Shown here piece after piece: positions 10,404 to 20,422 of a DNA stretch of 31,480 nt. Numbering within the stretch: the first letter of the stretch is position 1; each line of letters opens with the position of its first letter. Source of the stretch: a virus (taxonomy: Duplodnaviria; Heunggongvirae; Uroviricota; Caudoviricetes). The translations under genes and the position numbers were made by a program. Location of the stretch: IMG/VR virus record IMGVR_UViG_2531839484_000009; one strand, 5' to 3'. The notes below the pieces were generated by a model. It was given only the letters and a program-made list of their open reading frames with translations. It did no database searches and was not told the DNA's origin.

Positions 10404-11257
10404 GCACCATCCTGAAATGGGCGGGAAATAAAACCGCCATTATGTCCGAACTGAAAAAGCATCTTCCTGCTGGCCCGCGACTGGTTGAACCTTTCGCGGG
10501 TTCCTGTGCAGTGATGATGGAGACGGAGTACCCCAGCTATCTTGTTGCGGATATTAATCCTGATTTAATCAACCTCTATAAAAAGGTTGCTGCTGATTGT
10601 GAATCGTTTATATCTCGCGCCAAAGCTTTATTTGAGGAAGCAAACAGGGAGGTGGCTTATTACAACATAAGGCAGGAGTTTAATTACTCAACTGAAATTA
10701 CTGATTTCATGAAAGCGGTATATTTCCTGTATCTCAATCGTCACGGTTACCGTGGTTTATGTCGCTATAACAAGAGCGGGCATTTCAACATTCCCTACGG
10801 TAATTATAAAAATCCGTATTTCCCTGAAAAAGAAATTCGCGCATTTGCAGAAAAAGCCCAGCGAGCAACGTTTATCTGCGCCAGCTTTGATGAAACGCTG
10901 GCGATGTTGAAGGCGGGGGATGTGGTGTATTGCGATCCGCCGTATGACGGTACGTTTTCCGGCTATCACACTGATGGTTTCACTGAAGATGACCAGTATC
11001 ACCTGGCATCCGTTCTTGAACATCGGTCATCAGAAGGACATCCGGTCATTGTTTCTAACAGTGACACATCCCTGATCCGTTCGTTGTATCGCAATTTCAC
11101 CCACCACTACATCAAAGCAAAACGCAGCATCGGTGTGGCAGCTGGCGAGGGTAAATCAGCAACAGAAATCATTGCTGTTTCCGGGCCGCGCTGCTGGGTG
11201 GGATTTGATTATTCGCGTGGCGTGGACAGTTCTGCCGTGTACGGAGTACGTGCATGA
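10400..11257 (+). CDS. dam: DNA adenine methyltransferase (Dam family, orphan)
   Basis: N-terminal ILKWAGNK and catalytic DPPY motif ([12 protein letters not shown]); start ATG 10400 overlaps the upstream stop. Confidence 0.9.
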
Positions 11258-13668
11258 GTCATGCCGATATGAACAACTGCTGCGGCTTTAACGAGGCTGC
11301 CGCAGCATTCTCATGGAACAGCCCGAAAAAGGCCATTAACCCTTATCTGGACCCGGCGGAAGTTGCGCCGGTTTCTGCGCTTTCAAACCTGATCACTCTG
11401 TACGCTGCCGATAACGAGCAGGAACAACTGCGCCGCGAGGCACTGAGTGATCAGGTCTGGGAGCGTTATTTCTTTAATGAATCCCGTGATCCTGTCCAGC
11501 GCGAAATGGAGCAGGATAAGCTAATTAGCCGGGCAAAGCTGGCGCATGAGCAGCAGCGTTTTAATCCGGACATGGTCATTCTGGCGGATGTCAACGCTCA
11601 GCCTTCCCATATCAGCAAGCCGCTCATGCAACGTATTAAATACTTCAGCAACCTGGGCAGGCCAAAGGCTTATTCCCGCTATTTGCGTGAGACGATTAAG
11701 CCATGCCTGGAACGACTGGAGCATGTACGCGACAGCCAGCTATCTGCATCTTTTCGTTTTATGGCAAGCCATGAAGGGCTGGACGGTCTGCTGATCCTGC
11801 CTGAAATGAGTCAGGATCAGGTGAAACGCCTGTCCACCCTTGTCGCTGCGCATATGAGCATGTGTCTTGATGCCGCTTGTGGTGATTTGTACGCCTCCGA
11901 TGATGTTAAGCCGGAAGAAATCCGCAAGACATGGGAAAAGGTGGCAGCAGAAACCCTGCGACTGGATGTCATACCGCCTGCGTTTGAGCAACTCCGCCGG
12001 AAAAGAAACCGCCGCAAACCTGTGCCCTATGAACTCATTCCGGGTTCGCTGGCGCGTATGCTGTGCGCCGACTGGTGGTATCGGAAATTATGGAAGATGC
12101 GTTGCGAATGGCGGGAAGAGCAGTTGCGTGCTGTCTGTCTGGTCAGCAAAAAAGCATCTCCCTATGTCAGCTATGAAGCCGTGATGCATAAACGTGAGCA
12201 GCGCCGTAAGTCGCTGGAGTTTTTCCGTTCTCATGAACTGGTGAACGAAGACGGCGACACGCTGGACATGGAGGATGTGGTAAACGCCAGCAGCAGCAAC
12301 CCGGCGCATCGCCGCAATGAGATGATGGCCTGCGTTAAAGGTCTGGAGCTTATCGCGGAAATGCGTGGTGACTGCGCCGTTTTCTACACCATCACCTGTC
12401 CGTCACGTTTCCATTCCACGCTAAATAACGGCAGGCCAAACCCGACCTGGACCAACGCGACAGTAAGACAAAGCAGCGATTATCTGGTCGGCATGTTTGC
12501 TGCATTTCGTAAGGCTATGCACAAAGCCGGATTGCGCTGGTATGGCGTGCGGGTGGCTGAGCCGCATCATGACGGTACAGTTCACTGGCACCTGTTGTGT
12601 TTTATGCGCAAAAAAGATCGCCGCGCCATTACTGCTTTGTTGCGTAAGTTTGCCATTCGTGAAGACCGCGAGGAGCTGGGGAATAACACGGGACCACGCT
12701 TTAAGTCTGAGTTGATTAACCCGCGCAAAGGAACGCCGACAAGCTACATCGCGAAATATATCAGCAAGAACATTGACGGGCGTGGTCTGGCTGGCGAGAT
12801 CAGCAAGGAAACGGGTAAATCTCTGCGTGATAACGCTGAATACGTGAATGCCTGGGCGTCTTTGCATCGTGTTCAGCAATTCCGCTTCTTTGGCATTCCG
12901 GGGCGTCAGGCTTACCGTGAACTGCGATTGCTGGCTGGTCAGGCGGCAAGGCAGCAGGGTGACAAAAAAGCAGGTGTGCCGGTACTGGATAACCCGCGCC
13001 TTGATGCCATTCTGGCTGCTGCTGATGCTGGTTGTTTTGCCACCTATATCATGAAGCAGGGAGGTGTACTGGTTCCCCGTAAATATCACCTCATCAGAAC
13101 TGCTTATGAAATTAACGAAGAGCCGACCGCCTATGGCGATCACGGTATTCGTATTTATGGCATCTGGTCACCCATTGCAGAGGGCAAGATCTGCACTCAT
13201 GCAGTGAAGTGGAAAATGGTTCGTAAGGCCGTTGACGTTCAGGAGGCGGCAGCCGACCAGGGCGCTTGCGCCCCTTGGACTCGTGGCAATAACTGTCCCC
13301 TTGCTGAAAATTTGAACCAACAGGAGAAAGATAAATCAGCTGATGGGGACCACAGAACGGACATTACCAGCATGGATGACAAGGAGTTGCACGATTACCT
13401 GCACAGTATGAACAAAAAAGAGCGCCGGGAACTGGCTGCAAGGGTACGCCTGGTGAAACCGAAACGGCGTAAAGACTACAAACAGCGAATTACAGACCAT
13501 CAGAGACTGCAGCTCGTCTATGAGCTGAAGTCCAGAGGATTTGATGGTAGCGAGAAAGAGGTCGATTTACTCCTTCGCGGCGGCAGTATTCCGTCAGGAG
13601 CAGGCTTGCGTATCTTCTATCGGAACCAGCGTTTGCGGGAAGATGATAAGTGGCGGAACCTGTATTAA
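11254..13668 (+). CDS. A: Replication initiation endonuclease (P2 gpA-like rolling-circle initiator)
   Basis: HUH-like VHWHLLCF and tyrosine motif [12 protein letters not shown]; 804 aa; position after dam. Confidence 0.85.
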
Positions 13669-13760
13669 TTACGCGGATTAACAATTCGTGCTCTTAATAA
13701 TACCAGGCATATCAGGCTGATGAACGTAAAAAAACGTTTTACATCAGTAAGATTATTATA

Positions 13761-13780
13761 TACTGTAAATATAAACAGTG
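13761..13780. promoter_or_regulatory. LexA (SOS) box TACTGTAAATATAAACAGTG
   Basis: CTGT-N8-ACAG with 17 of 20 matches to the recalled consensus TACTGTATATATATACAGTA; 42 bp upstream of ORF 13822. Confidence 0.6.
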
Positions 13781-13821
13781 GTTATACATACAGTATTTCT
13801 TGTGGTGTCATAGGAGGAAAG

Positions 13822-14010
13822 ATGCAGGACTATTTTTTGGAGTCTTTGAAGCTCCAGCGCATTGATTTTTTTCTTAAGCTTGTAGCGGCTAGTGAGTGTA
13901 GTGATGAAGAGAAGGGGCTGGCTCTGCAGTGGGTTTCTGAACTAACAGATGAACTCATGGCAAAAATCAGAACCCACGAATACAACCGCTCAATGGATGT
14001 CATCAGCTGA
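13822..14010 (+). CDS. Small hypothetical protein, possibly the N-terminal part of a Tum-like antirepressor
   Basis: ATG 13822 preceded by AGGAGGAAAG; immediately downstream of the LexA box. Confidence 0.35.
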   Translation: MQDYFLESLKLQRIDFFLKLVAASECSDEEKGLALQWVSELTDELMAKIRTHEYNRSMDVIS

Positions 14011-14020
14011 GGTGACTTTT

Positions 14021-14254
14021 ATGCGCATTGAAATAATGATCGATAAAGAGCAGAAGATTAGCCAGTCTACCCTGGACGCCCTTGAATCCGAGCTTTACCG
14101 CAATCTGCGCCCCCTGTATCCCAAAACGGTAATTCGCATTCGCAAAGGTAGCTCTAACAGTGTGGAACTAACCGGACTGCAACTGGACGAAGAAAGAAAA
14201 CAAGTGATGAAAATTATGCAGAAGGTGTGGGAAGACGACAGCTGGCTGCATTAA
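14021..14254 (+). CDS. DinI-like protein (DinI / 186 Tum C-terminal domain family)
   Basis: MRIEIMIDKEQ...LYRNL...VWEDDSWL resembles E. coli DinI (MRIEVTIAK...TWESADDW) as recalled; GAGGTGA upstream of ATG 14021. Confidence 0.7.
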   Translation: MRIEIMIDKEQKISQSTLDALESELYRNLRPLYPKTVIRIRKGSSNSVELTGLQLDEERKQVMKIMQKVWEDDSWLH

Positions 14255-14389
14255 GAAACGTTGCTGGCGTCTGAACTTGCTTCTGGCGTCAGCAAGGTTG
14301 AACAACCAGCCCTTGCGAGGCGTTAGCTCTGTAGTGCATGTCTATGCCGCATGAGATCGCATGATCGTTTGAGGATCGTTTTTGCTAAG

Positions 14390-14414
14390 GCCCGCCAGAA
14401 CTGGCGGGCTTTTG
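14390..14414 (+). terminator. Rho-independent terminator after the dinI-like gene
   Basis: Perfect stem GCCCGCCAG / CTGGCGGGC followed by TTTT. Confidence 0.5.
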
Positions 14415-14458
14415 CGTAGATCATGCAGGTGCATGAAAACCACTACATAAAGCGGGCA

Positions 14459-14471
14459 GGCGTGGCGGGGA
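14459..14471. other. Candidate cos (cohesive end) element, GGCGTGGCGGGGA
   Basis: 13-nt identity to the start of the 186 cohesive end as recalled (GGCGTGGCGGGGAAAGCAT); GC-rich element just before the AT-rich cargo. Confidence 0.35.
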
Positions 14472-14542
14472 TACGAGCGCGCGGAAAGCTATTAAGATTT
14501 GTCATTTCTATCTTTCTTATGTAATGTTAATAAAAGCATCTT

Positions 14543-14599
14543 AATATTGATGAAAGTAGCAATTGTTCTTAATAGTACGAAGGATTTTTCATCAATATG
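14543..14599. promoter_or_regulatory. 13-bp inverted repeat AATATTGATGAAA ... TTTCATCAATATG (12 of 13) upstream of the ATPase cassette
   Basis: Read directly; arms separated by 31 bp, ending 37 bp before ATG 14636. Confidence 0.35.
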
Positions 14600-14635
14600 A
14601 AAATTAATAAATCATGTGAAAGGAAATGAAAACGG

Positions 14636-16606
14636 ATGATAAGAAATATATATATAAAGAATTTTAAAACATTAAATATGACATCATATATCGAACTTAA
14701 AGAATGTTCATTTTTGTGTGGCGCTAACAGTAGTGGTAAAAGTTCACTTATACAAACACTTCTAATGTTAGCTCAAACTTTTTCTAATAGATATCAAGAT
14801 GATAGTATGGTTTTAAATGGGTCTTTAGCAAGACTGGGTTCATTTACAGATATCAAAAAGCACAACTCTACAGAGGAAGTTATTACTATTGGTTTCACTT
14901 TTGATGTTGATGAGGCGTATTATCTTCGTGATAATACAATAAATTCAATTAGATGTGAGTTTGTTATTGGTAGAAGAGACCGCTCTGTAGCAAAAATAGA
15001 CGAAGATTATCATCCTATAATAATTTCTGCGAAATATTTTATTAGTAAGGGGGGGAATAATAAACAACAGGATTATATACACTTCCAATGTTCAGGTGAT
15101 TATTTTTATTCTAAAGAAGTGGTATATGACGTAGTGTCATTCAACACCTCTGAATATAATGATTTGAAGAAGAGGTTTCCAAGTCTAAAGATTTTAAGTA
15201 TTGCTAAATCTGGGGATTTAATTCCTTCTTTAATAAATATTCAATATGATAAAACAAAAAAAGAAAGCTATGAAATAATTAATTTTTTAACTAGAAAGCA
15301 TAGCACACAGAGGGGGGGGTATTTTTTAGATGATGAGGATTTTGGTGATGATATTCTTATCCCTAGAGAATTCTCCGCAAGAGTTTTGGAGTTGATAAAG
15401 GAAGAACGTAATAAATTATTGGACGAGTTTGACTTGCCAAACGATCTTCTTGACATCATGACACATAGTCATATTGCTAAAGATGATTATATCTCCTATA
15501 GCTATGACAAAAATAAATTATCGCAGAGAGCTAAGGAATTATTAAACGAAATTAAAGGTAATTTCATTGAAATAAACTATTCTTTACAATCAAGTGATAT
15601 TCCTTTAATTTTTGTAAATAAAGCTGTTAGTATAGTTGATTGGAAATCTTGGTTAGATGCTTTGGATGAGAAGAAAAGGAAAAGTTTAATCGTATTGTTA
15701 GAAAAGCACAGGGACAGTCTACAAGCAATATGGTATAACAATATTGATGTTAAAATGACAAGCGACGTATATAGTTCGCACCTTTTACAAGATGTAGAAA
15801 ATGCAATGGTGTACTGTTTCTCGCGAAGCCTAAAGTACCTTGGGCCTCTACGACATGAACCTCAGGCTGTCTATTCATCGAGCCCTTATGATGCAAACAC
15901 CGTAGGTTTGAAAGGTGAATTTACCGCCTCTCTTCTTCATCGAAATCGCGCTAATTTTATATGTTACAGCTCCCCTTCTATAATTAATGGTAAAATAAAC
16001 GTTAGAGAAAAGTATGATACTCTAAACAACGCTTGTAAAGAGTGGTTGTCATTTTTAGGTGTTGTTGAGGAAGTAAGAACTACTGATAAAGGTAAATTAG
16101 GCTATGAGTTATACGTTAAAACTTCTAGCGGCGAAAAATGGCAAGATCTCACTCACGTAGGTGTTGGTGTCAGTCAAGTACTGCCTATTGTATTGATGTT
16201 CTTGAATTCAGATCCTTCAGATGTGTTAATTTTTGAACAACCGGAATTACATTTACATCCTAAAGTTCAATCTAAATTATGTGACCTTTTTCTTATAATG
16301 GCAAATACTGGTCGCCAGTGCATTATTGAAACTCACAGTGAGTATATGATCAATAGATTGAGGCTTAGAGTTGCGCAAGATTTAGACAATAATTACCTCA
16401 AAAAATCAGCGCTATATTTTATAAATAAAGTTAATGGGATATCAGAATTCCAAAATATAAATATTAACAAGTATGGTGCGATTCCTGAATGGCCTGAAGA
16501 TTTCTTTGATCAAACAGATAAGGAAGTTGAAAAGATTTTAATGGAGGCAAGCATAAAGAAAAATAAAGAAAAAGCTAAGAGGTTTACCAATGACAGCGGT
16601 TATTAA
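14636..16606 (+). CDS. ABC/OLD-type (AAA_15/AAA_21-like) ATPase with Walker A and Walker B separated by ~500 aa
   Basis: Walker A GANSSGKSS near the N-terminus; Walker-B-like VLIFEQPELHLHP and H-loop-like IIETHS near residue 530-560; strongly AT-rich. Confidence 0.7.
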   Translation: MIRNIYIKNFKTLNMTSYIELKECSFLCGANSSGKSSLIQTLLMLAQTFSNRYQDDSMVLNGSLARLGSFTDIKKHNSTEEVITIGFTFDVDEAYYLRDNTINSIRCEFVIGRRDRSVAKIDEDYHPIIISAKYFISKGGNNKQQDYIHFQCSGDYFYSKEVVYDVVSFNTSEYNDLKKRFPSLKILSIAKSGDLIPSLINIQYDKTKKESYEIINFLTRKHSTQRGGYFLDDEDFGDDILIPREFSARVLELIKEERNKLLDEFDLPNDLLDIMTHSHIAKDDYISYSYDKNKLSQRAKELLNEIKGNFIEINYSLQSSDIPLIFVNKAVSIVDWKSWLDALDEKKRKSLIVLLEKHRDSLQAIWYNNIDVKMTSDVYSSHLLQDVENAMVYCFSRSLKYLGPLRHEPQAVYSSSPYDANTVGLKGEFTASLLHRNRANFICYSSPSIINGKINVREKYDTLNNACKEWLSFLGVVEEVRTTDKGKLGYELYVKTSSGEKWQDLTHVGVGVSQVLPIVLMFLNSDPSDVLIFEQPELHLHPKVQSKLCDLFLIMANTGRQCIIETHSEYMINRLRLRVAQDLDNNYLKKSALYFINKVNGISEFQNININKYGAIPEWPEDFFDQTDKEVEKILMEASIKKNKEKAKRFTNDSGY

Positions 16607-17615
16607 ATTTGAATATTTAATATCTCCATTGATATGCACTGGTGGGCAGGTAGATGAGCATGTCAATGGTCTGCGATTATTAAAAGAATTAGTTAGTAGT
16701 TCTGACATAGACGTCAAATGCGAGGACTCCATACTCAGCAATATGCAAGAGGCTGGTTATTATCCATGTGCTAAAATATTGAGTAGGGCATTCCCTGGTG
16801 GTGAAGATTGCGTTCATAGCGCTCAAGATGTTTCAAAAATAATAAATAATATAATTAGCCATTTCGAAGAGTGCAATCCTGAAGTTACTTCTCATGAAAT
16901 CGAGTGGGACTCGTTTACGGTTGTGCCGCCTATAGAAACAATATCAGATGAGAGAAAAAATAATGTCGAAATTTTCTTGAGGAATATTCTTTCAAGAAAA
17001 TTTCTATTAAGTGAAGAGTTTTCTTTCTTTTATTCTCAAAGAAATAAGCCAATTCTTCAGTCCCAAAAGTTTTCATTAAGCGGTACAATTAGCGATATAT
17101 ACCCTGCGGATAGTGTAGCAATACCCATTGAATTAAGTAATGAAATAATTGCTCACGGTAATATTAATGATTTCATCAATAATATTGATGGGTACTCTTT
17201 ATATAAAATGGCTAGTAATATATCCGCTCTTAAATGTGCTCTCTTTTTTGGTTGTGTAAATTTTTTGAAAAATAATTATACAGGTGAAAAGTTCGAATGG
17301 GATGATTTCAAAATAGGAGCAGATTTTTTTGATTCGTTGCTAAGACATCAAGGTGCTTTTGAACAAGAGTTTTCCTCAGTAGTTTATGAAACTATAGTGC
17401 AAGTTTTATGTCGCCATCCTAAAAATGAAGTAAAACCATTTAGAGTATCTTCCAAGTCTACTGAACAAAGAACCCATGGTGATTTAAGGGCCTTTCGCAC
17501 CCATATCACTTCTAGACATCAAGCATTGAGACTAATGTTTTGGGTTGATTCCAATCAAATAATCACATTGGCAAATATTGGTCCGAAATTTGAAGAATCT
17601 ATTTCTTTGCCATGA
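16590..17615 (+). CDS. Uncharacterised partner protein of the ATPase (341 aa), putative effector
   Basis: ATG 16590 overlaps the ATPase gene by 17 nt, AGAGG 8 nt upstream; no recognisable HNH or clear TOPRIM motifs; C-terminal RAFRTH / RTHITSRH fit an Rx4-6H pattern. Confidence 0.5.
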   Translation: MTAVIKFEYLISPLICTGGQVDEHVNGLRLLKELVSSSDIDVKCEDSILSNMQEAGYYPCAKILSRAFPGGEDCVHSAQDVSKIINNIISHFEECNPEVTSHEIEWDSFTVVPPIETISDERKNNVEIFLRNILSRKFLLSEEFSFFYSQRNKPILQSQKFSLSGTISDIYPADSVAIPIELSNEIIAHGNINDFINNIDGYSLYKMASNISALKCALFFGCVNFLKNNYTGEKFEWDDFKIGADFFDSLLRHQGAFEQEFSSVVYETIVQVLCRHPKNEVKPFRVSSKSTEQRTHGDLRAFRTHITSRHQALRLMFWVDSNQIITLANIGPKFEESISLP

Positions 17616-17620
17616 GATAA

Positions 17621-17645
17621 GCCCCTCTCAAAAGAGAGGGGCTTT
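17621..17645. terminator. Bidirectional hairpin terminator between the cargo cassette and portal gene Q
   Basis: Perfect stem GCCCCTCTC-aaaa-GAGAGGGGC followed by TTT; overlaps the last codons and stop of Q. Confidence 0.55.
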
Positions 17646-18659
17646 ATTAAACTTAATAATATCTACACCAACCCATTCATTGATCTCAAAAAACCTGCAT
17701 TGAAGGCTTTTTATTTCATTGTTGAAAAATACTTTTGCTGCCTTCTCCACATCCCCAAACCCACCAACATTGTTAGGCATGATCCCCATCATCTGCGGCG
17801 GTACGCGGTGCGCTGCCAACATGTCATCCCGGCTCACGTTCTTGATATTCAAAAACTCATCTTTTGCCGCAACTTCTGACAATGGGATGATCTGAAGCCC
17901 GTCCTTTTTGCCGTTAGGTGAGTACATAAACAGGTTGCGGAAGTTGCCTGGCCCTTTGGCGCTTTTCATTGCGTTACGGAGGTTGTTCACGTCCTCCTGG
18001 TTCTGCGCGGCATCGGTCATGTACATGATGAAGCCTGCATGACTACCGTTAATGTAATACTTGCGGCGGAACAGCGTGGCGGACTCGTTGAGCAGGGCCG
18101 ACGGAATGGCAGAAAGATAACCGGGCAGGCCGTAGACCTCCTGGTTGATGTCCGGTTCCATCAGATGAAAAACGCTGCCTTTCGTGAACTGATACGGCTG
18201 GGTTGTCATACCATATTGCACAAACCAGTAGGTATCCAGGTCTAATCCGCGTCGGGTGTATTTTGCCAGAGCAGGCTCAAGGGCGATAACTTCACCGAAC
18301 CGGTTCGTGCGTTTCTCCAGGTAGGCGTTACCAAATACCAGATAGTCCTGCACAAAACGTGAAAAAGCCTGCTGGCTGAGCAGCGGGTGAGGGATGTAGG
18401 TGCTGGTCAGAATGTTGCATTTCACCGCAATGGGTGAGTTGTGATGTACGGCGGCGCGGAAGATGCGCGCTAGGGCGTCGAAACTCACAGGCGGCTCATA
18501 CCAGCGATCTGTCTGTACACATTCCACATAGTCCAGCAGTTCGCGGCGGTCCAGTACTGGAATGGGATCACCGAAGCTGAATGCCTCTGCTGAAGTCTGG
18601 CTTTTATGCTGGGTCTGGTTCTGCGACGCAGCGCGGTTCTTCTTACTCTTTCCCATCAA
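17628..18659 (-). CDS. Q: Portal protein (P2 gpQ-like)
   Basis: 343 aa, directly downstream of and overlapping (ATGA) the terminase large subunit gene; P2 late-operon synteny. Confidence 0.85.
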   Translation of the reverse strand: MMGKSKKNRAASQNQTQHKSQTSAEAFSFGDPIPVLDRRELLDYVECVQTDRWYEPPVSFDALARIFRAAVHHNSPIAVKCNILTSTYIPHPLLSQQAFSRFVQDYLVFGNAYLEKRTNRFGEVIALEPALAKYTRRGLDLDTYWFVQYGMTTQPYQFTKGSVFHLMEPDINQEVYGLPGYLSAIPSALLNESATLFRRKYYINGSHAGFIMYMTDAAQNQEDVNNLRNAMKSAKGPGNFRNLFMYSPNGKKDGLQIIPLSEVAAKDEFLNIKNVSRDDMLAAHRVPPQMMGIMPNNVGGFGDVEKAAKVFFNNEIKSLQCRFFEINEWVGVDIIKFNKAPLF

Positions 18660-20422
18660 AAAATCTCCACAATATTACTGGTATTGGCGGACTCGCCCTG
18701 CAGTGGTTCGTTAAACAGTGCGTGCATTGTTGCCCAGGCCAGATCGGCGTGGCTGGCTTCTTCGCTGCGGCTGGCTTCATAGGTCGGGCGGTTGCCGCTG
18801 GCGGTAGTGGCGCGACGGATTGCCATAAATGATTGCGCAATGTCGGTGTGTCCGGCGTCAAATTCCAGGCGGCGGTGACTGATAATGTCGTAGGCCTTGA
18901 GTACCAGGGCGTTTTTAACGTTGGGGTTGTAGACAAACTCCCGGACGGCAGGAAAGAACGCTTTCACGTTCTCGTAAACCCCGTGACCGACGCCGGTTGA
19001 GTCGATACCGATATAGGTCACGTTGTACTGTTCAGTCAGTTTTTTGATGGCGTCAGCCTGGGCGCGGAAGTCCATCCCGCGCCACTGGTGACGCTCAAGA
19101 ATGCGGAACTTACCGCCCGGCACCGCTGGCGGAGCCACCACCACGCATCCGGCACTGTCGCCGTTTTGCGTACCTTTCGCCGGGTCATATCCGATCCACA
19201 CTTCGCGCCAGCCAAACGGGCGCAGGGCCAGTGCATGAAAGTCGGTCCAGACTTCCCAACTGTCCACCATGCACGCTTGCAGCTCGCTGAGCGGGAACAC
19301 GGACGCGAGATCGTCCACGAACTCACACATCAGCAGGTTCTGGTATTCGTCCGGGCTGTACTCCATGCGCAACTGGTCGAGGTCGAACAGGTTACAGCCG
19401 CCGCGCACCGCATCTTCCACGGTGACTATCTGGCGGTACTGCCCGTCTGCGCACAGCAGGCCGGGGGCCAGATTGCTGTGGGACAGGTCGATGTCCACCT
19501 TATCGGCTTTGTTGCGCCCTCGGTTGAACAGCGCACCGGACCAGAACGGATAAGCACTGTGTGTCAGGCTGGATGGCGTGGAAAAATAGGTTTGTCGCCA
19601 TTTTTTGTGAATAGCCATACCGGAAGCCACTTTGCGCAGCTCCTGGAATTTCGGTATCCAGAAATATTCATCCAGATACAGGTTGCCGTGGTAACTCTGG
19701 GCCGTGCGGGCATTGGTGCCGAGGAAGTAAAGCGTGGCCCCGTTAGGAAGCACCATCGGATCGCCTTTCAGCTCTACCTCGACTTCTTTGGCGAAGTCGA
19801 TGATGTACTGCTTAAAGACGTGGGCCTGTGCCTTACTGGCGGAAAGGAAAATCTGGTTACGTCCGGTAAGCAGAGCGTCAATCAGGGCTTCACGGGCAAA
19901 GTAAAAGGTCGCGCCGATCTGGCGTGACTTCAGCAGGTTGCGGATGCGGTTGGTTTTTCCGGCTTCCCACCAGTGGCGCTGGTAGTTGAACATGGAGGAA
20001 TGGAAGATTTCTTCCAGCTTCTCAATCTGTTCATCGGTGAAAACGTTCTTTTCCGGCTGACGACGCGGGCCTTTGTTGCGGTTGGCGATGTTAGGGTTTA
20101 AGTCGGCTTCGTTGCCGCCATTGTTAAACTTGCCGATCCGCGCGTGGCGCTCCGACTGGCGCGCCAGCAGGTCAATCTCTTTGAAATCTTTCCCTTCTTT
20201 GTGCTCCTTCATGATGAGCTGGCAGTAGCGTGCGGCGGTGGTGAGCTGCATCTGATCCAGCGGCCCATAGTCACCCCACTTGTCGCGTTTTTTCCAGCTG
20301 TGAACGGTTGCAACTTTCTCGCCCAGCATTTCAGCAATGCGGGCTACGCGGTATCCCTGAAAGTACAGCAGCATGGCCTGCCGACGGGGATCGAGATCTG
20401 CGGGGGTCTGTGTGGTGTTCAT
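18656..20422 (-). CDS. P: Terminase large (ATPase) subunit (P2 gpP-like)
   Basis: 588 aa; divergent from the scaffold/capsid operon as in P2. Confidence 0.85.
   Translation of the reverse strand: MNTTQTPADLDPRRQAMLLYFQGYRVARIAEMLGEKVATVHSWKKRDKWGDYGPLDQMQLTTAARYCQLIMKEHKEGKDFKEIDLLARQSERHARIGKFNNGGNEADLNPNIANRNKGPRRQPEKNVFTDEQIEKLEEIFHSSMFNYQRHWWEAGKTNRIRNLLKSRQIGATFYFAREALIDALLTGRNQIFLSASKAQAHVFKQYIIDFAKEVEVELKGDPMVLPNGATLYFLGTNARTAQSYHGNLYLDEYFWIPKFQELRKVASGMAIHKKWRQTYFSTPSSLTHSAYPFWSGALFNRGRNKADKVDIDLSHSNLAPGLLCADGQYRQIVTVEDAVRGGCNLFDLDQLRMEYSPDEYQNLLMCEFVDDLASVFPLSELQACMVDSWEVWTDFHALALRPFGWREVWIGYDPAKGTQNGDSAGCVVVAPPAVPGGKFRILERHQWRGMDFRAQADAIKKLTEQYNVTYIGIDSTGVGHGVYENVKAFFPAVREFVYNPNVKNALVLKAYDIISHRRLEFDAGHTDIAQSFMAIRRATTASGNRPTYEASRSEEASHADLAWATMHALFNEPLQGESANTSNIVEIF

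What the first reader, a model, noticed from the sequence alone, without database searches (positions are those of the whole stretch)
16226..16246. Walker B of the cargo ATPase reads EQ instead of the usual DE (LIFEQPE)
Seen: the segment aligning by eye to the canonical hhhhDEPE-x2-LHP motif of AAA_15/AAA_21 ATPases reads LIFEQPELHLHP, i.e. Asp to Glu and catalytic Glu to Gln. Established: Glu to Gln at the Walker B catalytic position is the classic hydrolysis-dead, ATP-trapping substitution in ABC ATPases. Inference: the protein may bind ATP but hydrolyse slowly, acting as a nucleotide-dependent switch or clamp, or the second Glu in QPE may substitute.
Basis: partly seen in the sequence, partly recalled or inferred. 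Interest (0 to 1): 0.45.

Follow-up and report, generated by a model that had tools for sequence, protein, structure and literature searches.

The report
Family-wide Glu-Gln Walker B, defence ATPase
The odd "EQ" in place of the usual "DE" catalytic pair is real, but it is the conserved hallmark of a very large family of phage-defence ATPases (DUF3696 type, relatives of Menshen NsnB and HEC-03), here paired with a predicted RNase toxin in a P2 prophage defence hotspot.

Summary
Window 16226-16246 encodes L531-I-F-E534-Q535-P-E537 of a 656-aa ABC-type ATPase (14636-16606, +). Alignments to solved OLD, PtuA and FtsE structures and an AlphaFold model put E534 on the Walker B Asp and Q535 on the catalytic Glu.

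It is not a private defect of this gene. Of 377 homologues sampled, down to about 25-30% identity, 374 read EQ, 2 EE and 1 EH, and the codons vary synonymously. The family is large (5,997 50%-identity clusters at E<=1e-30). It carries Pfam DUF3696 and two more deviations: Arg at the Q-loop position and GxGxSQ as signature. It includes the ATPase family of the validated HEC-03 system (EQ), the PDC-M55 candidates (EQ) and Menshen NsnB, whose EN dyad is already published.

The overlapping downstream gene (16590-17615) has a PIN-like N-domain and a YafQ/RelE-like C-domain, like Menshen NsnC. The pair travels together in many bacteria and viral contigs. No DUF262 NsnA gene accompanies it.

Most likely the ATPase is a slow-turnover, ATP-latched switch that holds and releases the RNase, but no ATPase data exist. 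It is a new variant of a known kind, of moderate interest.

The parts
14636..16606 (+). 656-aa ABC-type ATPase of the DUF3696 / NsnB-like clade (N-lobe, about 300-aa insertion, C-lobe, DUF3696 tail)
   Evidence: ORF. Pfam AAA_15 4.7e-24, AAA_21 6.6e-22, DUF3696 1.5e-9. PADLOC NsnB 4.4e-78, HEC-03 ATPase model 2.8e-58, PDC-M55A 1.7e-43. AF2 model pLDDT 82. Foldseek best matches are SMC/Rad50 heads and retron PtuA.
14720..14746 (+). Walker A / P-loop G29-ANSSGKSS-37 (K35, S36 invariant)
   Evidence: Invariant columns G29 N31 S32 G34 K35 S36 S37 in A1; aligned with P-loops of divergent relatives.
15836..15853 (+). Y401-LGPLR-406: the Q-loop position is occupied by invariant Arg406 instead of Gln
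   Evidence: Invariant in A1. GP[LF]R found in 114 of 117 further homologues. The same Gln-to-Arg replacement is described for NsnB (PMC12065111). The AF2 confidence here is low (pLDDT 39-58).
16160..16177 (+). G509-VGVSQ-514: variant signature motif (GxGxSQ instead of LSGGQ) at the start of helix 510-524
   Evidence: Invariant in A1. G.G.SQ in 114/117 further homologues. 'SGG replaced by GxG' is reported for NsnB.
16223..16261 (+). Walker B strand plus D-loop region V530-LIFEQPELHLHP-542. E534 stands for the Walker B Asp and Q535 for the catalytic Glu. The flagged interval 16226-16246 lies inside.
16328..16339 (+). H-loop E565-THS-568 (H567 invariant)
   Evidence: Invariant in A1. ETHS/ESHS in 116/117 further homologues. 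Follows strand 561-565 in the model.
16406..16534 (+). DUF3696 region (residues 591-633, W619-P-x-x-F-F-D motif), followed by the long C-terminal helix 628-652
   Evidence: Pfam PF12476 match 591-633. The WPxxFF motif is shared with HEC-03-type, PDC-M55-type and NsnB relatives. In Menshen, AlphaFold 3 models have this tail clamping the NsnC N-domain (PMC12065111).
16590..17615 (+). 341-aa partner gene overlapping the ATPase gene by 17 nt: PIN-like N-domain (about residues 1-230) plus YafQ/RelE-like (BECR fold) C-domain (about 244-341), the predicted RNase effector
17496..17603 (+). Conserved C-terminal motif of the partner: R303-T-H305-I-T ... A312-LRLMFW-318 ... N329-x-G-x-K333-x-E335
   Evidence: Invariant columns in A2 and A3. 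The same motif is present in 16 viral partners. It lies in the strands aligned to RelE/YafQ-type toxins.
17624..17641 (+). Terminator-like hairpin just after the partner stop codon, at the convergent junction with the portal gene
   Evidence: consensus scan only.
14484..17627 (.). AT-rich cargo segment (GC 30-37%) in the P2-type gpA-gpQ defence hotspot. The left flank is conserved in 1,281 E. coli genomes up to about 14483; the whole cargo is present in 2 of 5,426.
   Evidence: The hotspot is defined in PMC9122126.

Best explanation
The flagged segment is the true Walker B of a DUF3696-type (NsnB/HEC-03-like) ABC ATPase. In this family the canonical Asp-Glu pair is constitutively Glu-Gln.

The ATPase and the overlapping downstream gene form a two-gene anti-phage module carried as cargo in the gpA-gpQ hotspot of a P2-like prophage. 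The downstream gene encodes a PIN-like domain followed by a YafQ/RelE-like RNase domain.

Proposed mechanism (inferred, not shown):
- The intact P-loop, the signature-like GxGxSQ and the H-loop His let the ATPase bind ATP and form head-to-head dimers or tetramers.
- With Gln in place of the general base, hydrolysis is slow. The ATP-engaged state is therefore long-lived, and the protein behaves as a latch or switch rather than a motor.
- In this state the C-terminal DUF3696 tails hold the PIN-like domain of the partner and keep its RNase domain in check.
- A phage cue, probably read by the roughly 300-residue insertion that replaces the separate NsnA sensor of Menshen, changes the nucleotide or oligomer state and frees or activates the RNase.

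Shown here: register, family-wide conservation, co-inheritance of the two genes, the folds and the hotspot context. Inferred: slow hydrolysis, clamping of the partner, the sensing role of the insertion and the RNase activity.
For: - Register.
- Family-wide EQ under purifying selection: 374 of 377 homologues, with synonymous codon variation. Library hits: 5,997 clusters at E<=1e-30.
- Nucleotide-site residues are all invariant (K35, S36, R406, G509/G511/S513/Q514, H567). This argues for a working nucleotide pocket, not a decayed one.
- Engineered E-to-Q forms of ABC ATPases are used to trap ATP-engaged states, and such forms are the best sequence and fold matches in the PDB.
- The related validated system HEC-03 needs both genes. 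Its ATPase family is EQ.
- Menshen NsnB (EN) is predicted to clamp the NsnC inPIN domain with DUF3696.
- The partner has PIN-like and YafQ/RelE-like folds.
- The two genes overlap and co-occur across Enterobacterales, Pseudomonas, Cupriavidus and viral contigs.
- The hotspot carries other defence cargo in sister prophages.
Against: - No ATPase, nucleotide-binding or defence assay exists for this protein or, as far as I could search, for any DUF3696 ATPase. PDB sequence searches also found no solved structure closer than OLD or PtuA.
- Strict retention of Gln (not Ala, Ser or Gly), of the H-loop His and of an Arg at the Q-loop position could equally mean an alternative but competent catalytic constellation.
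- E at the Asp position also occurs together with a normal catalytic Glu (EE in BpOLD and a Prevotella relative). The first substitution alone therefore says nothing about activity.
- The clamp model is borrowed from AlphaFold 3 predictions for Menshen and from Septu and retron structures. It was not computed for this pair.
Confidence: 0.55

Rival explanations
1. The site is a fully competent but rewired hydrolase. Catalysis would use Q535 to position the attacking water, R406 (at the Q-loop position) as a cis arginine finger and H567 as linchpin, much like the Gln + Arg arrangement of small GTPases, or E534 would serve as the base. Turnover would be triggered by the partner or a phage cue. 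On this view EQ is not a dead or slow state but a different chemistry.
For: - Q535 is almost never replaced by small or apolar residues. Only Q, N, H or E are seen (EN in NsnB).
- R406 and H567 are invariant.
- The Gln-to-Arg change at the Q-loop position co-occurs with EQ or EN in every DUF3696-type sequence examined.
Against: - No coordinates or nucleotide-bound model could be inspected, and the Q-loop segment is low-confidence in the model (pLDDT 39-58).
- An Arg at the aligned Q-loop position also appears in a canonical DE relative (E. albertii, 'SERTG'; the alignment there is uncertain), so the Arg is not specific to EQ.
- In ABC ATPases studied so far, E-to-Q lowers turnover by orders of magnitude (established knowledge).
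Confidence: 0.3
2. The ATPase domain is a degenerate pseudo-enzyme that no longer needs nucleotide and serves only as an antitoxin-like scaffold for the RNase partner.
For: Three canonical catalytic motifs deviate at once (Walker B, Q-loop, signature).
Against: The Walker A Lys/Ser, the SQ of the signature, the H-loop His and the EQPELHLHP block are invariant over more than 370 sequences with synonymous codon turnover. This is not expected for a relaxed site. In related systems the Walker A is needed for defence (HEC-04; AriA K39A).
Confidence: 0.08
3. The register is wrong: the real Walker B lies elsewhere and LIFEQPE is an unrelated stretch.
For: None found.
Against: Three independent explicit alignments to solved ABC ATPases, Pfam and PADLOC matches spanning the segment and the predicted strand-loop-helix-strand-His topology all agree. 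No other hhhh[DE][EQ] candidate precedes an H-loop.
Confidence: 0.02

Closest known systems
Menshen NsnB / NsnC (Millman 2022; domain analysis in PMC12065111)
   Same: - ATPase C-lobe plus DUF3696 matches the PADLOC NsnB model best (4.4e-78).
- Same set of deviations: first Walker B residue Glu, second an amide (N in NsnB, Q here), Q-loop Arg, GxG signature, H-loop His.
- The partner has the NsnC layout: PIN-like N-domain plus BECR/YafQ-like RNase C-domain.
   Different: - No DUF262/ParB-like NsnA gene here or next to orthologues.
- The ATPase is 656 aa against about 345, with a large extra insertion. Only NsnB profile positions 82-343 are matched.
- The dyad is EQ, not EN.
- The partner matches no NsnC model.
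HEC-03 (Payne et al., bioRxiv 10.1101/2024.01.29.577857): ABC ATPase + PIN protein, experimentally protective, both genes required
   Same: - Two-gene layout: a DUF3696 ATPase followed by a PIN-type protein.
- The ATPase family (about 460 aa, e.g. Aeromonas L006, P0294, P0327) is EQ in 115 of 115 members sampled.
- The C-lobe of the window protein matches the HEC-03 ATPase model at 2.8e-58.
   Different: - The match covers only profile positions 214-452 of 458.
- The window ATPase is about 200 aa longer.
- The partner (341 aa, PIN-like + RelE-like) does not hit the HEC-03 PIN model, and the HEC-03 partners are about 160-180 aa.
- I did not see the sequence of the tested HEC-03 protein itself.
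PDC-M55 (PADLOC candidate system)
   Same: DUF3696 ATPase with EQ plus an overlapping downstream gene (Bacillus L007, Leclercia L008).
   Different: Different ATPase size (408-470 aa) and unrelated partner family. Untested candidate.
PARIS AriA, Septu / retron I-A PtuA, Gabija GajA, OLD nucleases (OLD-ABC / SMC-like defence ATPases)
   Same: - Same fold and the same 'xxPExxLHP' Walker B / D-loop block.
- The ATPase regulates a bound or fused nuclease.
- A C-terminal claw holds the effector in Septu and retron I-A.
   Different: - They keep the canonical dyad: PtuA shows DE in the printed alignments. AriA E393 is described as its Walker B catalytic residue, and E393A is ATPase-defective.
- Their partners are TOPRIM or HNH nucleases, not PIN/RelE-like proteins.
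- They have no DUF3696.
B. pseudomallei class 2 OLD (PDB 6p74)
   Same: Best PDB sequence match (3e-7). It naturally has Glu at the Walker B Asp position ('VIIEEPEMYLHP').
   Different: It keeps the catalytic Glu (EE) and has a fused TOPRIM nuclease. Its paper reports no ATPase data.
Engineered Walker B E-to-Q trap mutants (cohesin SMC3/SMC1A-HD(EQ), FtsE, PtuA entries)
   Same: Same residue at the same position. These entries score as well as or better than their wild types against the family profile.
   Different: They are laboratory mutations in D-E enzymes and retain Asp and the Q-loop Gln. Here the state is natural, ancient and accompanied by E534 and R406.

Membership tests
ABC-type (SMC/Rad50/OLD-ABC; Pfam AAA_15/AAA_21) ATPase fold | P-loop GxxxxGK[ST] | tested here: met
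   G29-ANSSGKSS-37, invariant.
ABC-type (SMC/Rad50/OLD-ABC; Pfam AAA_15/AAA_21) ATPase fold | Walker B hhhhD followed by the catalytic E | tested here: not met
   The aligned residues are E534-Q535. The position and the strand are conserved, but the chemistry is not canonical.
ABC-type (SMC/Rad50/OLD-ABC; Pfam AAA_15/AAA_21) ATPase fold | Q-loop Gln | tested here: not met
   Invariant R406 at the aligned position. The same is reported for NsnB. My own alignment of this loop to canonical proteins is not residue-certain.
ABC-type (SMC/Rad50/OLD-ABC; Pfam AAA_15/AAA_21) ATPase fold | Signature (LSGGQ-like) motif and H-loop His | tested here: inconclusive
   The H-loop H567 is present and invariant. 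The signature is the variant GVGVSQ. Whether it contacts ATP in trans was not testable.
ABC-type (SMC/Rad50/OLD-ABC; Pfam AAA_15/AAA_21) ATPase fold | Overall fold of an ABC/SMC head | tested here: met
   Pfam AAA_15 and AAA_21 above the curated cut-offs. Foldseek probability 1.00 to SMC3, Rad50, Smc and retron PtuA heads.
DUF3696-type (NsnB-like) ATPase clade | C-terminal DUF3696 (PF12476) with the WPxxFF motif | tested here: met
   PF12476 38.4 bits against cut-off 22, residues 591-633. The motif aligns with HEC-03-, PDC-M55- and NsnB-type proteins.
DUF3696-type (NsnB-like) ATPase clade | Walker B E-[Q/N], Q-loop Arg, GxG signature | tested here: met
   Described for NsnB in PMC12065111.
Menshen (NsnABC) | Adjacent NsnA (DUF262/ParB-like + DNA-binding domain) | tested here: not met
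   No such ORF in 13000-19000, nor beside orthologues in Morganella, Pseudomonas and Cupriavidus.
Menshen (NsnABC) | NsnB ATPase | tested here: inconclusive
   Strong but partial HMM match (residues 353-635 to profile 82-343 of 345). The protein is about 300 aa longer and has EQ rather than EN.
Menshen (NsnABC) | NsnC: N-terminal (in)PIN domain + C-terminal effector domain | tested here: inconclusive
HEC-03 | Full-length match to the HEC-03 ATPase and to the HEC-03 PIN protein models | tested here: not met
   The ATPase matches only profile positions 214-452 of 458, and the partner has no hit. True members give about 445 bits end to end, and their partners hit the HEC-03A model.
HEC-03 | Both genes required for phage defence | not testable with these tools
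   Needs plaque assays. Shown for HEC-03 itself.
PARIS (AriAB) | DUF4435/TOPRIM AriB partner, or an AriA-AriB fusion | tested here: not met
   The partner has no Pfam or PADLOC hit and has PIN/RelE-like folds. The AriA model match is weaker (9e-27) than the NsnB match.
Septu / retron PtuAB, OLD / Gabija | HNH partner (PtuB) or fused TOPRIM nuclease | tested here: not met
   Neither is present.

The most novel reading that the evidence does not exclude
The DUF3696 clade (thousands of sequence clusters, including Menshen, HEC-03 and this P2 cargo) would be a natural class of ABC ATPases that gave up the general-base mechanism. Either they work as obligate ATP-latched switches whose reset depends on a partner or a phage cue, or they hydrolyse ATP through a GTPase-like Gln (Walker B+1) plus cis-Arg (Q-loop position) constellation. 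In this P2 subtype the large insertion in the ATPase would take over the sensor role that Menshen assigns to a separate NsnA protein.
Probability: 0.2. Interest if true: 0.6.

Novelty: new variant of a known kind. Interest (0 to 1): 0.35.

Why it matters
Many anti-phage systems pair an ABC/SMC-like ATPase with a toxic nuclease. A recurring open question is whether ATP binding or ATP hydrolysis carries the signal (stated explicitly for the HEC systems).

A whole family that naturally carries the textbook hydrolysis-impairing substitution is a ready-made test case. Comparing the wild type with a restored D-E or E-E site (Q535E, E534D/Q535E) would show whether long-lived ATP engagement is the design principle.

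For annotation, the practical point is that EQ in these proteins must not be read as a pseudogene-like defect. This two-gene cassette (long DUF3696 ATPase + PIN/RelE-like protein) is a probable defence system that PADLOC v2 models detect only partially.

Tried and rejected
I used A5 as a profile for the protein search instead.
- The viral-contig scan used the peptide patterns THVGVGVS and EQPELHLH, so its 100% EQ is circular. I used it only for gene neighbourhoods.
- Krishnan et al. 2020, the ABC ATPase classification most likely to discuss this clade, is not held.
- The class 2 OLD paper has no ATPase or Walker B discussion.
- The retron I-A paper I could read does not describe the Q-containing PtuA entries. 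That 9nnb and 9nnk are engineered E-to-Q mutants is therefore my inference from sequence differences between deposited chains.
- AriA was never printed residue by residue. From coordinates alone E534/Q535 fall on AriA 391/392 or 392/393, because of a one-residue gap somewhere. The AriA register is therefore consistent but not proven. GajA was matched only through PADLOC models, without alignments.
- A search for the P2 cos sequence as I remembered it found nothing.
- Rejected ideas: that the motif is a recent inactivating mutation (family-wide conservation, synonymous codons), that the second Glu is a compensating novelty (it is conserved in canonical relatives too), and that the cassette is PARIS, Septu or OLD (wrong partner).
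Full report
**1. The observation.** Window 16226-16246 (+) is TTA ATT TTT GAA CAA CCG GAA. It encodes L531-I-F-E534-Q535-P-E537 of a 656-aa ORF at 14636..16606. The ORF has a plausible AAGGA ribosome-binding site about 10 nt upstream of its ATG. The full conserved block is V530-LIFEQPELHLHP-542.

**2. Register.** The protein passes the Pfam cut-offs for AAA_15, AAA_21 and DUF3696.
- A phmmer search of the PDB aligns 529-586 to retron I-A / Ec78 PtuA residues 390-446. This places E534/Q535 on PtuA D395/E396 ('LIDEIELHLHP'; some deposited chains read 'LIDQIELHLHP').
- A profile of the C-lobe (A4) aligns the same block to class 2 OLD from B. pseudomallei (6p74, 'VIIEEPEMYLHP') and to FtsE chains reading 'LLADQPTGNLDP'.
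- AriA (8v46) is also hit. Coordinates put E534/Q535 on AriA 391/392 or 392/393. AriA E393 is its Walker B catalytic residue (PMC11464382). That alignment was not printed, so this comparator is consistent rather than proven.
- The AlphaFold2 model (mean pLDDT 82, 88 in this block) has strand 530-534 ending at E534, a loop, helix 542-557, and strand 561-565 followed by H567. This is the standard Walker B / D-loop / H-loop arrangement.
- Foldseek finds SMC3, Rad50, Smc and retron PtuA heads.

The register stands.

**3. It is a family trait, not a lesion.**

| Sample | Result |
|---|---|
| 120 best homologues at 90% clustering (37-100% identity) | all EQ |
| Top 150 representatives of 50%-identity clusters | EQ except one EH |
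| Second, broader profile search (117 new proteins, mostly a ~460-aa subfamily, 31-37% identical in the C-lobe) | 115 EQ, 2 EE |
| Total | 374 EQ, 2 EE, 1 EH of 377 |

- The representative library holds 5,997 clusters at E<=1e-30 and 17,699 at E<=1e-10 for the family profile.
- At the DNA level E534 is GAA or GAG and Q535 is CAA or CAG in different loci, so the amino acids are kept by selection.
- Plasmid-borne relatives found by tblastn give a graded picture:
  - Aeromonas, Bacillus, Leclercia and Deinococcus DUF3696 proteins are EQ.
  - Two NsnB proteins sitting next to DUF262 genes (Klebsiella, Campylobacter) are EN.
  - A Prevotella relative is EE.
  - More distant AAA_15 proteins (E. albertii, a small Klebsiella plasmid, a B. 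thuringiensis PtuA-like protein) are canonical DE.
- EQ travels with an invariant Arg at the Q-loop position (Y-L-G-P-L-R406), a GxGxSQ signature (G509-VGVSQ), an invariant H-loop His (H567) and the DUF3696 WPxxFF tail.

**4. [quoted passage not shown] It also reports AlphaFold 3 models in which pairs of DUF3696 tails clamp the N-terminal inactive-PIN domain of NsnC. It draws no conclusion about hydrolysis.

PADLOC places the window ATPase closest to NsnB (4.4e-78), the HEC-03 ATPase model (2.8e-58) and PDC-M55A (1.7e-43). In each case the match covers only the C-lobe and tail. The ~460-aa EQ subfamily matches the HEC-03 ATPase model end to end (about 445 bits), and its small downstream gene matches the HEC-03 PIN model. 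HEC-03 protects E. coli against phages and needs both genes. Its authors state that whether ATP binding or hydrolysis matters is unknown.

I found no solved structure of a DUF3696 ATPase and no ATPase measurement in the searchable literature.

**5. The surroundings.** The gene sits between a P2-type replication endonuclease gpA (11254-13668) with a DinI-like gene, and the convergent portal (17628-18659, -) and terminase (18656-20422, -) genes. This is the gpA-gpQ defence hotspot of P2-like phages (PMC9122126).
- The left flank occurs in 1,281 of 5,426 complete E. coli genomes. The cargo itself occurs in only 2.
- Sister prophages carry a nuclease-domain gene plus a hypothetical, a hypothetical plus a HIRAN protein, or a GTP pyrophosphokinase at the same place.
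- The cargo is AT-rich (GC 30-37%) against 52-60% for the phage backbone.

**6. The partner.** A 341-aa ORF (16590-17615) overlaps the ATPase stop by 17 nt and is followed by a terminator-like hairpin.
- It has no Pfam or PADLOC hit but belongs to phrog_25609. The ATPase belongs to phrog_21420.
- Orthologous pairs (ATPase 612-667 aa followed by a 332-348-aa overlapping or abutting gene) occur in several settings. These are a Morganella lambdoid prophage, next to a filamentous-phage region in Pseudomonas, in Cupriavidus, and in 16 of 17 close viral contigs.
- The partner evolves faster than the ATPase (28-48% against 41-58% identity). It keeps a C-terminal motif R303-x-H305-[IV]-T ... LRLM-x-W ... 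N-[IV]-G-x-K333-x-E335.
- This is the NsnC layout (PIN-like N-domain plus BECR RNase; YafQ was also the closest match for NsnC-C).
- More distant EQ ATPases have unrelated partners of 170-480 aa. The ATPase thus acts as a conserved hub with polymorphic effectors.
- No DUF262 NsnA gene is present here or beside the orthologues.

**7. Mechanism.**
- What is shown: a nucleotide pocket under strong selection, in which the general-base Glu is constitutively Gln.
- What follows from established knowledge: E-to-Q in ABC/SMC ATPases strongly slows hydrolysis and stabilises the ATP-engaged dimer. The PDB entries that this family matches best include exactly such engineered EQ forms.
- My best reading (confidence about 0.55): the ATPase is an ATP-latched switch that holds the RNase partner through its DUF3696 tails. 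It releases or activates the partner when a phage cue, probably sensed by the ~300-residue insertion (roughly residues 55-395), alters the oligomer or nucleotide state.
- Main rival (about 0.3): the site is rewired rather than disabled. The position tolerates only Q, N, H or E, and it co-occurs with an invariant Arg at the Q-loop position and a retained H-loop His. A Gln + Arg arrangement is how small GTPases catalyse hydrolysis without a general base.
- E at the Asp position is compatible with a normal catalytic Glu (EE in BpOLD and a Prevotella protein), so the D-to-E change by itself is uninformative.
- A decayed pseudo-ATPase (about 0.08) and a wrong register (about 0.02) are poorly supported.

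**8. Classification and novelty.**
- The ATPase is a member of the DUF3696 / NsnB-like clade; all clade features I tested were met.
- The cassette is not Menshen (no NsnA).
- It is not HEC-03 by sequence (partial ATPase match, no partner match).
- It is not PARIS, Septu or OLD (wrong effector).

It is best described as a new variant of the known 'DUF3696 ATPase + PIN-type effector' kind. It has a long-insertion ATPase and a PIN/RelE-like partner, and it rides in prophage hotspots.

The Walker B deviation is essentially already described for the sister NsnB (as EN). What this work adds is that EQ is the dominant, near-invariant state across the clade, including the family of a validated defence system.

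**9. Verdict.** Interest is moderate (0.35). This is not a surprise at the level of this gene. It is a clean, testable handle on the question of ATP binding versus hydrolysis in ATPase-nuclease defence systems.

Noticed in passing
window 14457-14496: A G-rich stretch 'GGGCAGGCGTGGCGGGGATACGAGCGCGCGGAAAGC' lies exactly where the flank conserved in other E. coli prophages ends (about 14483) and the AT-rich cargo begins. It resembles P2/186-type cos ends as I remember them, but the P2 cos 19-mer from memory gave no match within 3 mismatches.
   Followed up: partly
L016 6966-9693; L017 7031-8682; L018 6996-8000 (E. coli prophages sharing the left flank): The same position between the DinI-like gene and the portal gene carries unrelated cargo in sister prophages. 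L016 has a dsDNA-nuclease-domain protein plus a 552-aa hypothetical. L017 has a hypothetical plus a HIRAN-domain protein. L018 has a lone GTP pyrophosphokinase (RelA/SpoT-like).
   Followed up: partly
window 13720-14254: the ORF listing gives two overlapping ORFs (96 aa and 101 aa). RefSeq annotation of identical flanks calls shorter genes (62-aa hypothetical, 77-aa DinI-like), which fits the Pfam/PHROG matches covering only residues 35-96 and 38-100. The long ORFs overshoot the real starts.
   Followed up: partly
window 16590-17279 (partner residues 1-230): The PIN-like N-domain keeps several invariant acidic residues (E8, E45, D80, E94). I did not establish whether it is a catalytically inactive 'inPIN' as in Menshen NsnC or an active PIN as suggested for the HEC-03 partner.
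   Followed up: no
PDB chains 9nnb_C, 9nnk_C, 8jia_A, 8i6r_B: Deposited chains with Gln at the catalytic position (PtuA 'LIDQIE', FtsE 'ADQP'), presumably engineered trap mutants, score slightly better against this family's profile than their Glu-containing counterparts (e.g. 21.8 against 18.9 bits for PtuA).
   Followed up: partly
protein P0249 (632 aa); P0291/P0297 and L015 1576-3342: These are the rare exceptions to EQ inside the sampled family: one 'FEHPEIHLHP' (His) and a small Prevotella-type group 'IIEEPEQNLHP' (Glu). The latter lacks the GPLR Q-loop motif.
   Followed up: partly
L003 4211-4909 (Pseudomonas mendocina, upstream of the orthologous cassette): A PLDc_2 (phospholipase D-like nuclease) gene lies directly upstream of the ATPase-partner pair, next to a filamentous-phage-like region (Phage_Coat_B). 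It may be another defence gene in the same islet.
   Followed up: no
L008 5896-7461 (Leclercia plasmid): A DUF262 gene lies about 1.1 kb downstream of a PDC-M55-type EQ ATPase pair, separated from it by an IS1 element and a small ORF. It could be a disrupted or rearranged Menshen-like arrangement.
   Followed up: no
window 17615-17641: Only 12 nt separate the partner stop codon (17615) from the end of the convergent portal ORF (17628). A terminator-like hairpin (17624-17641) straddles the junction and could serve both transcription units.
   Followed up: no
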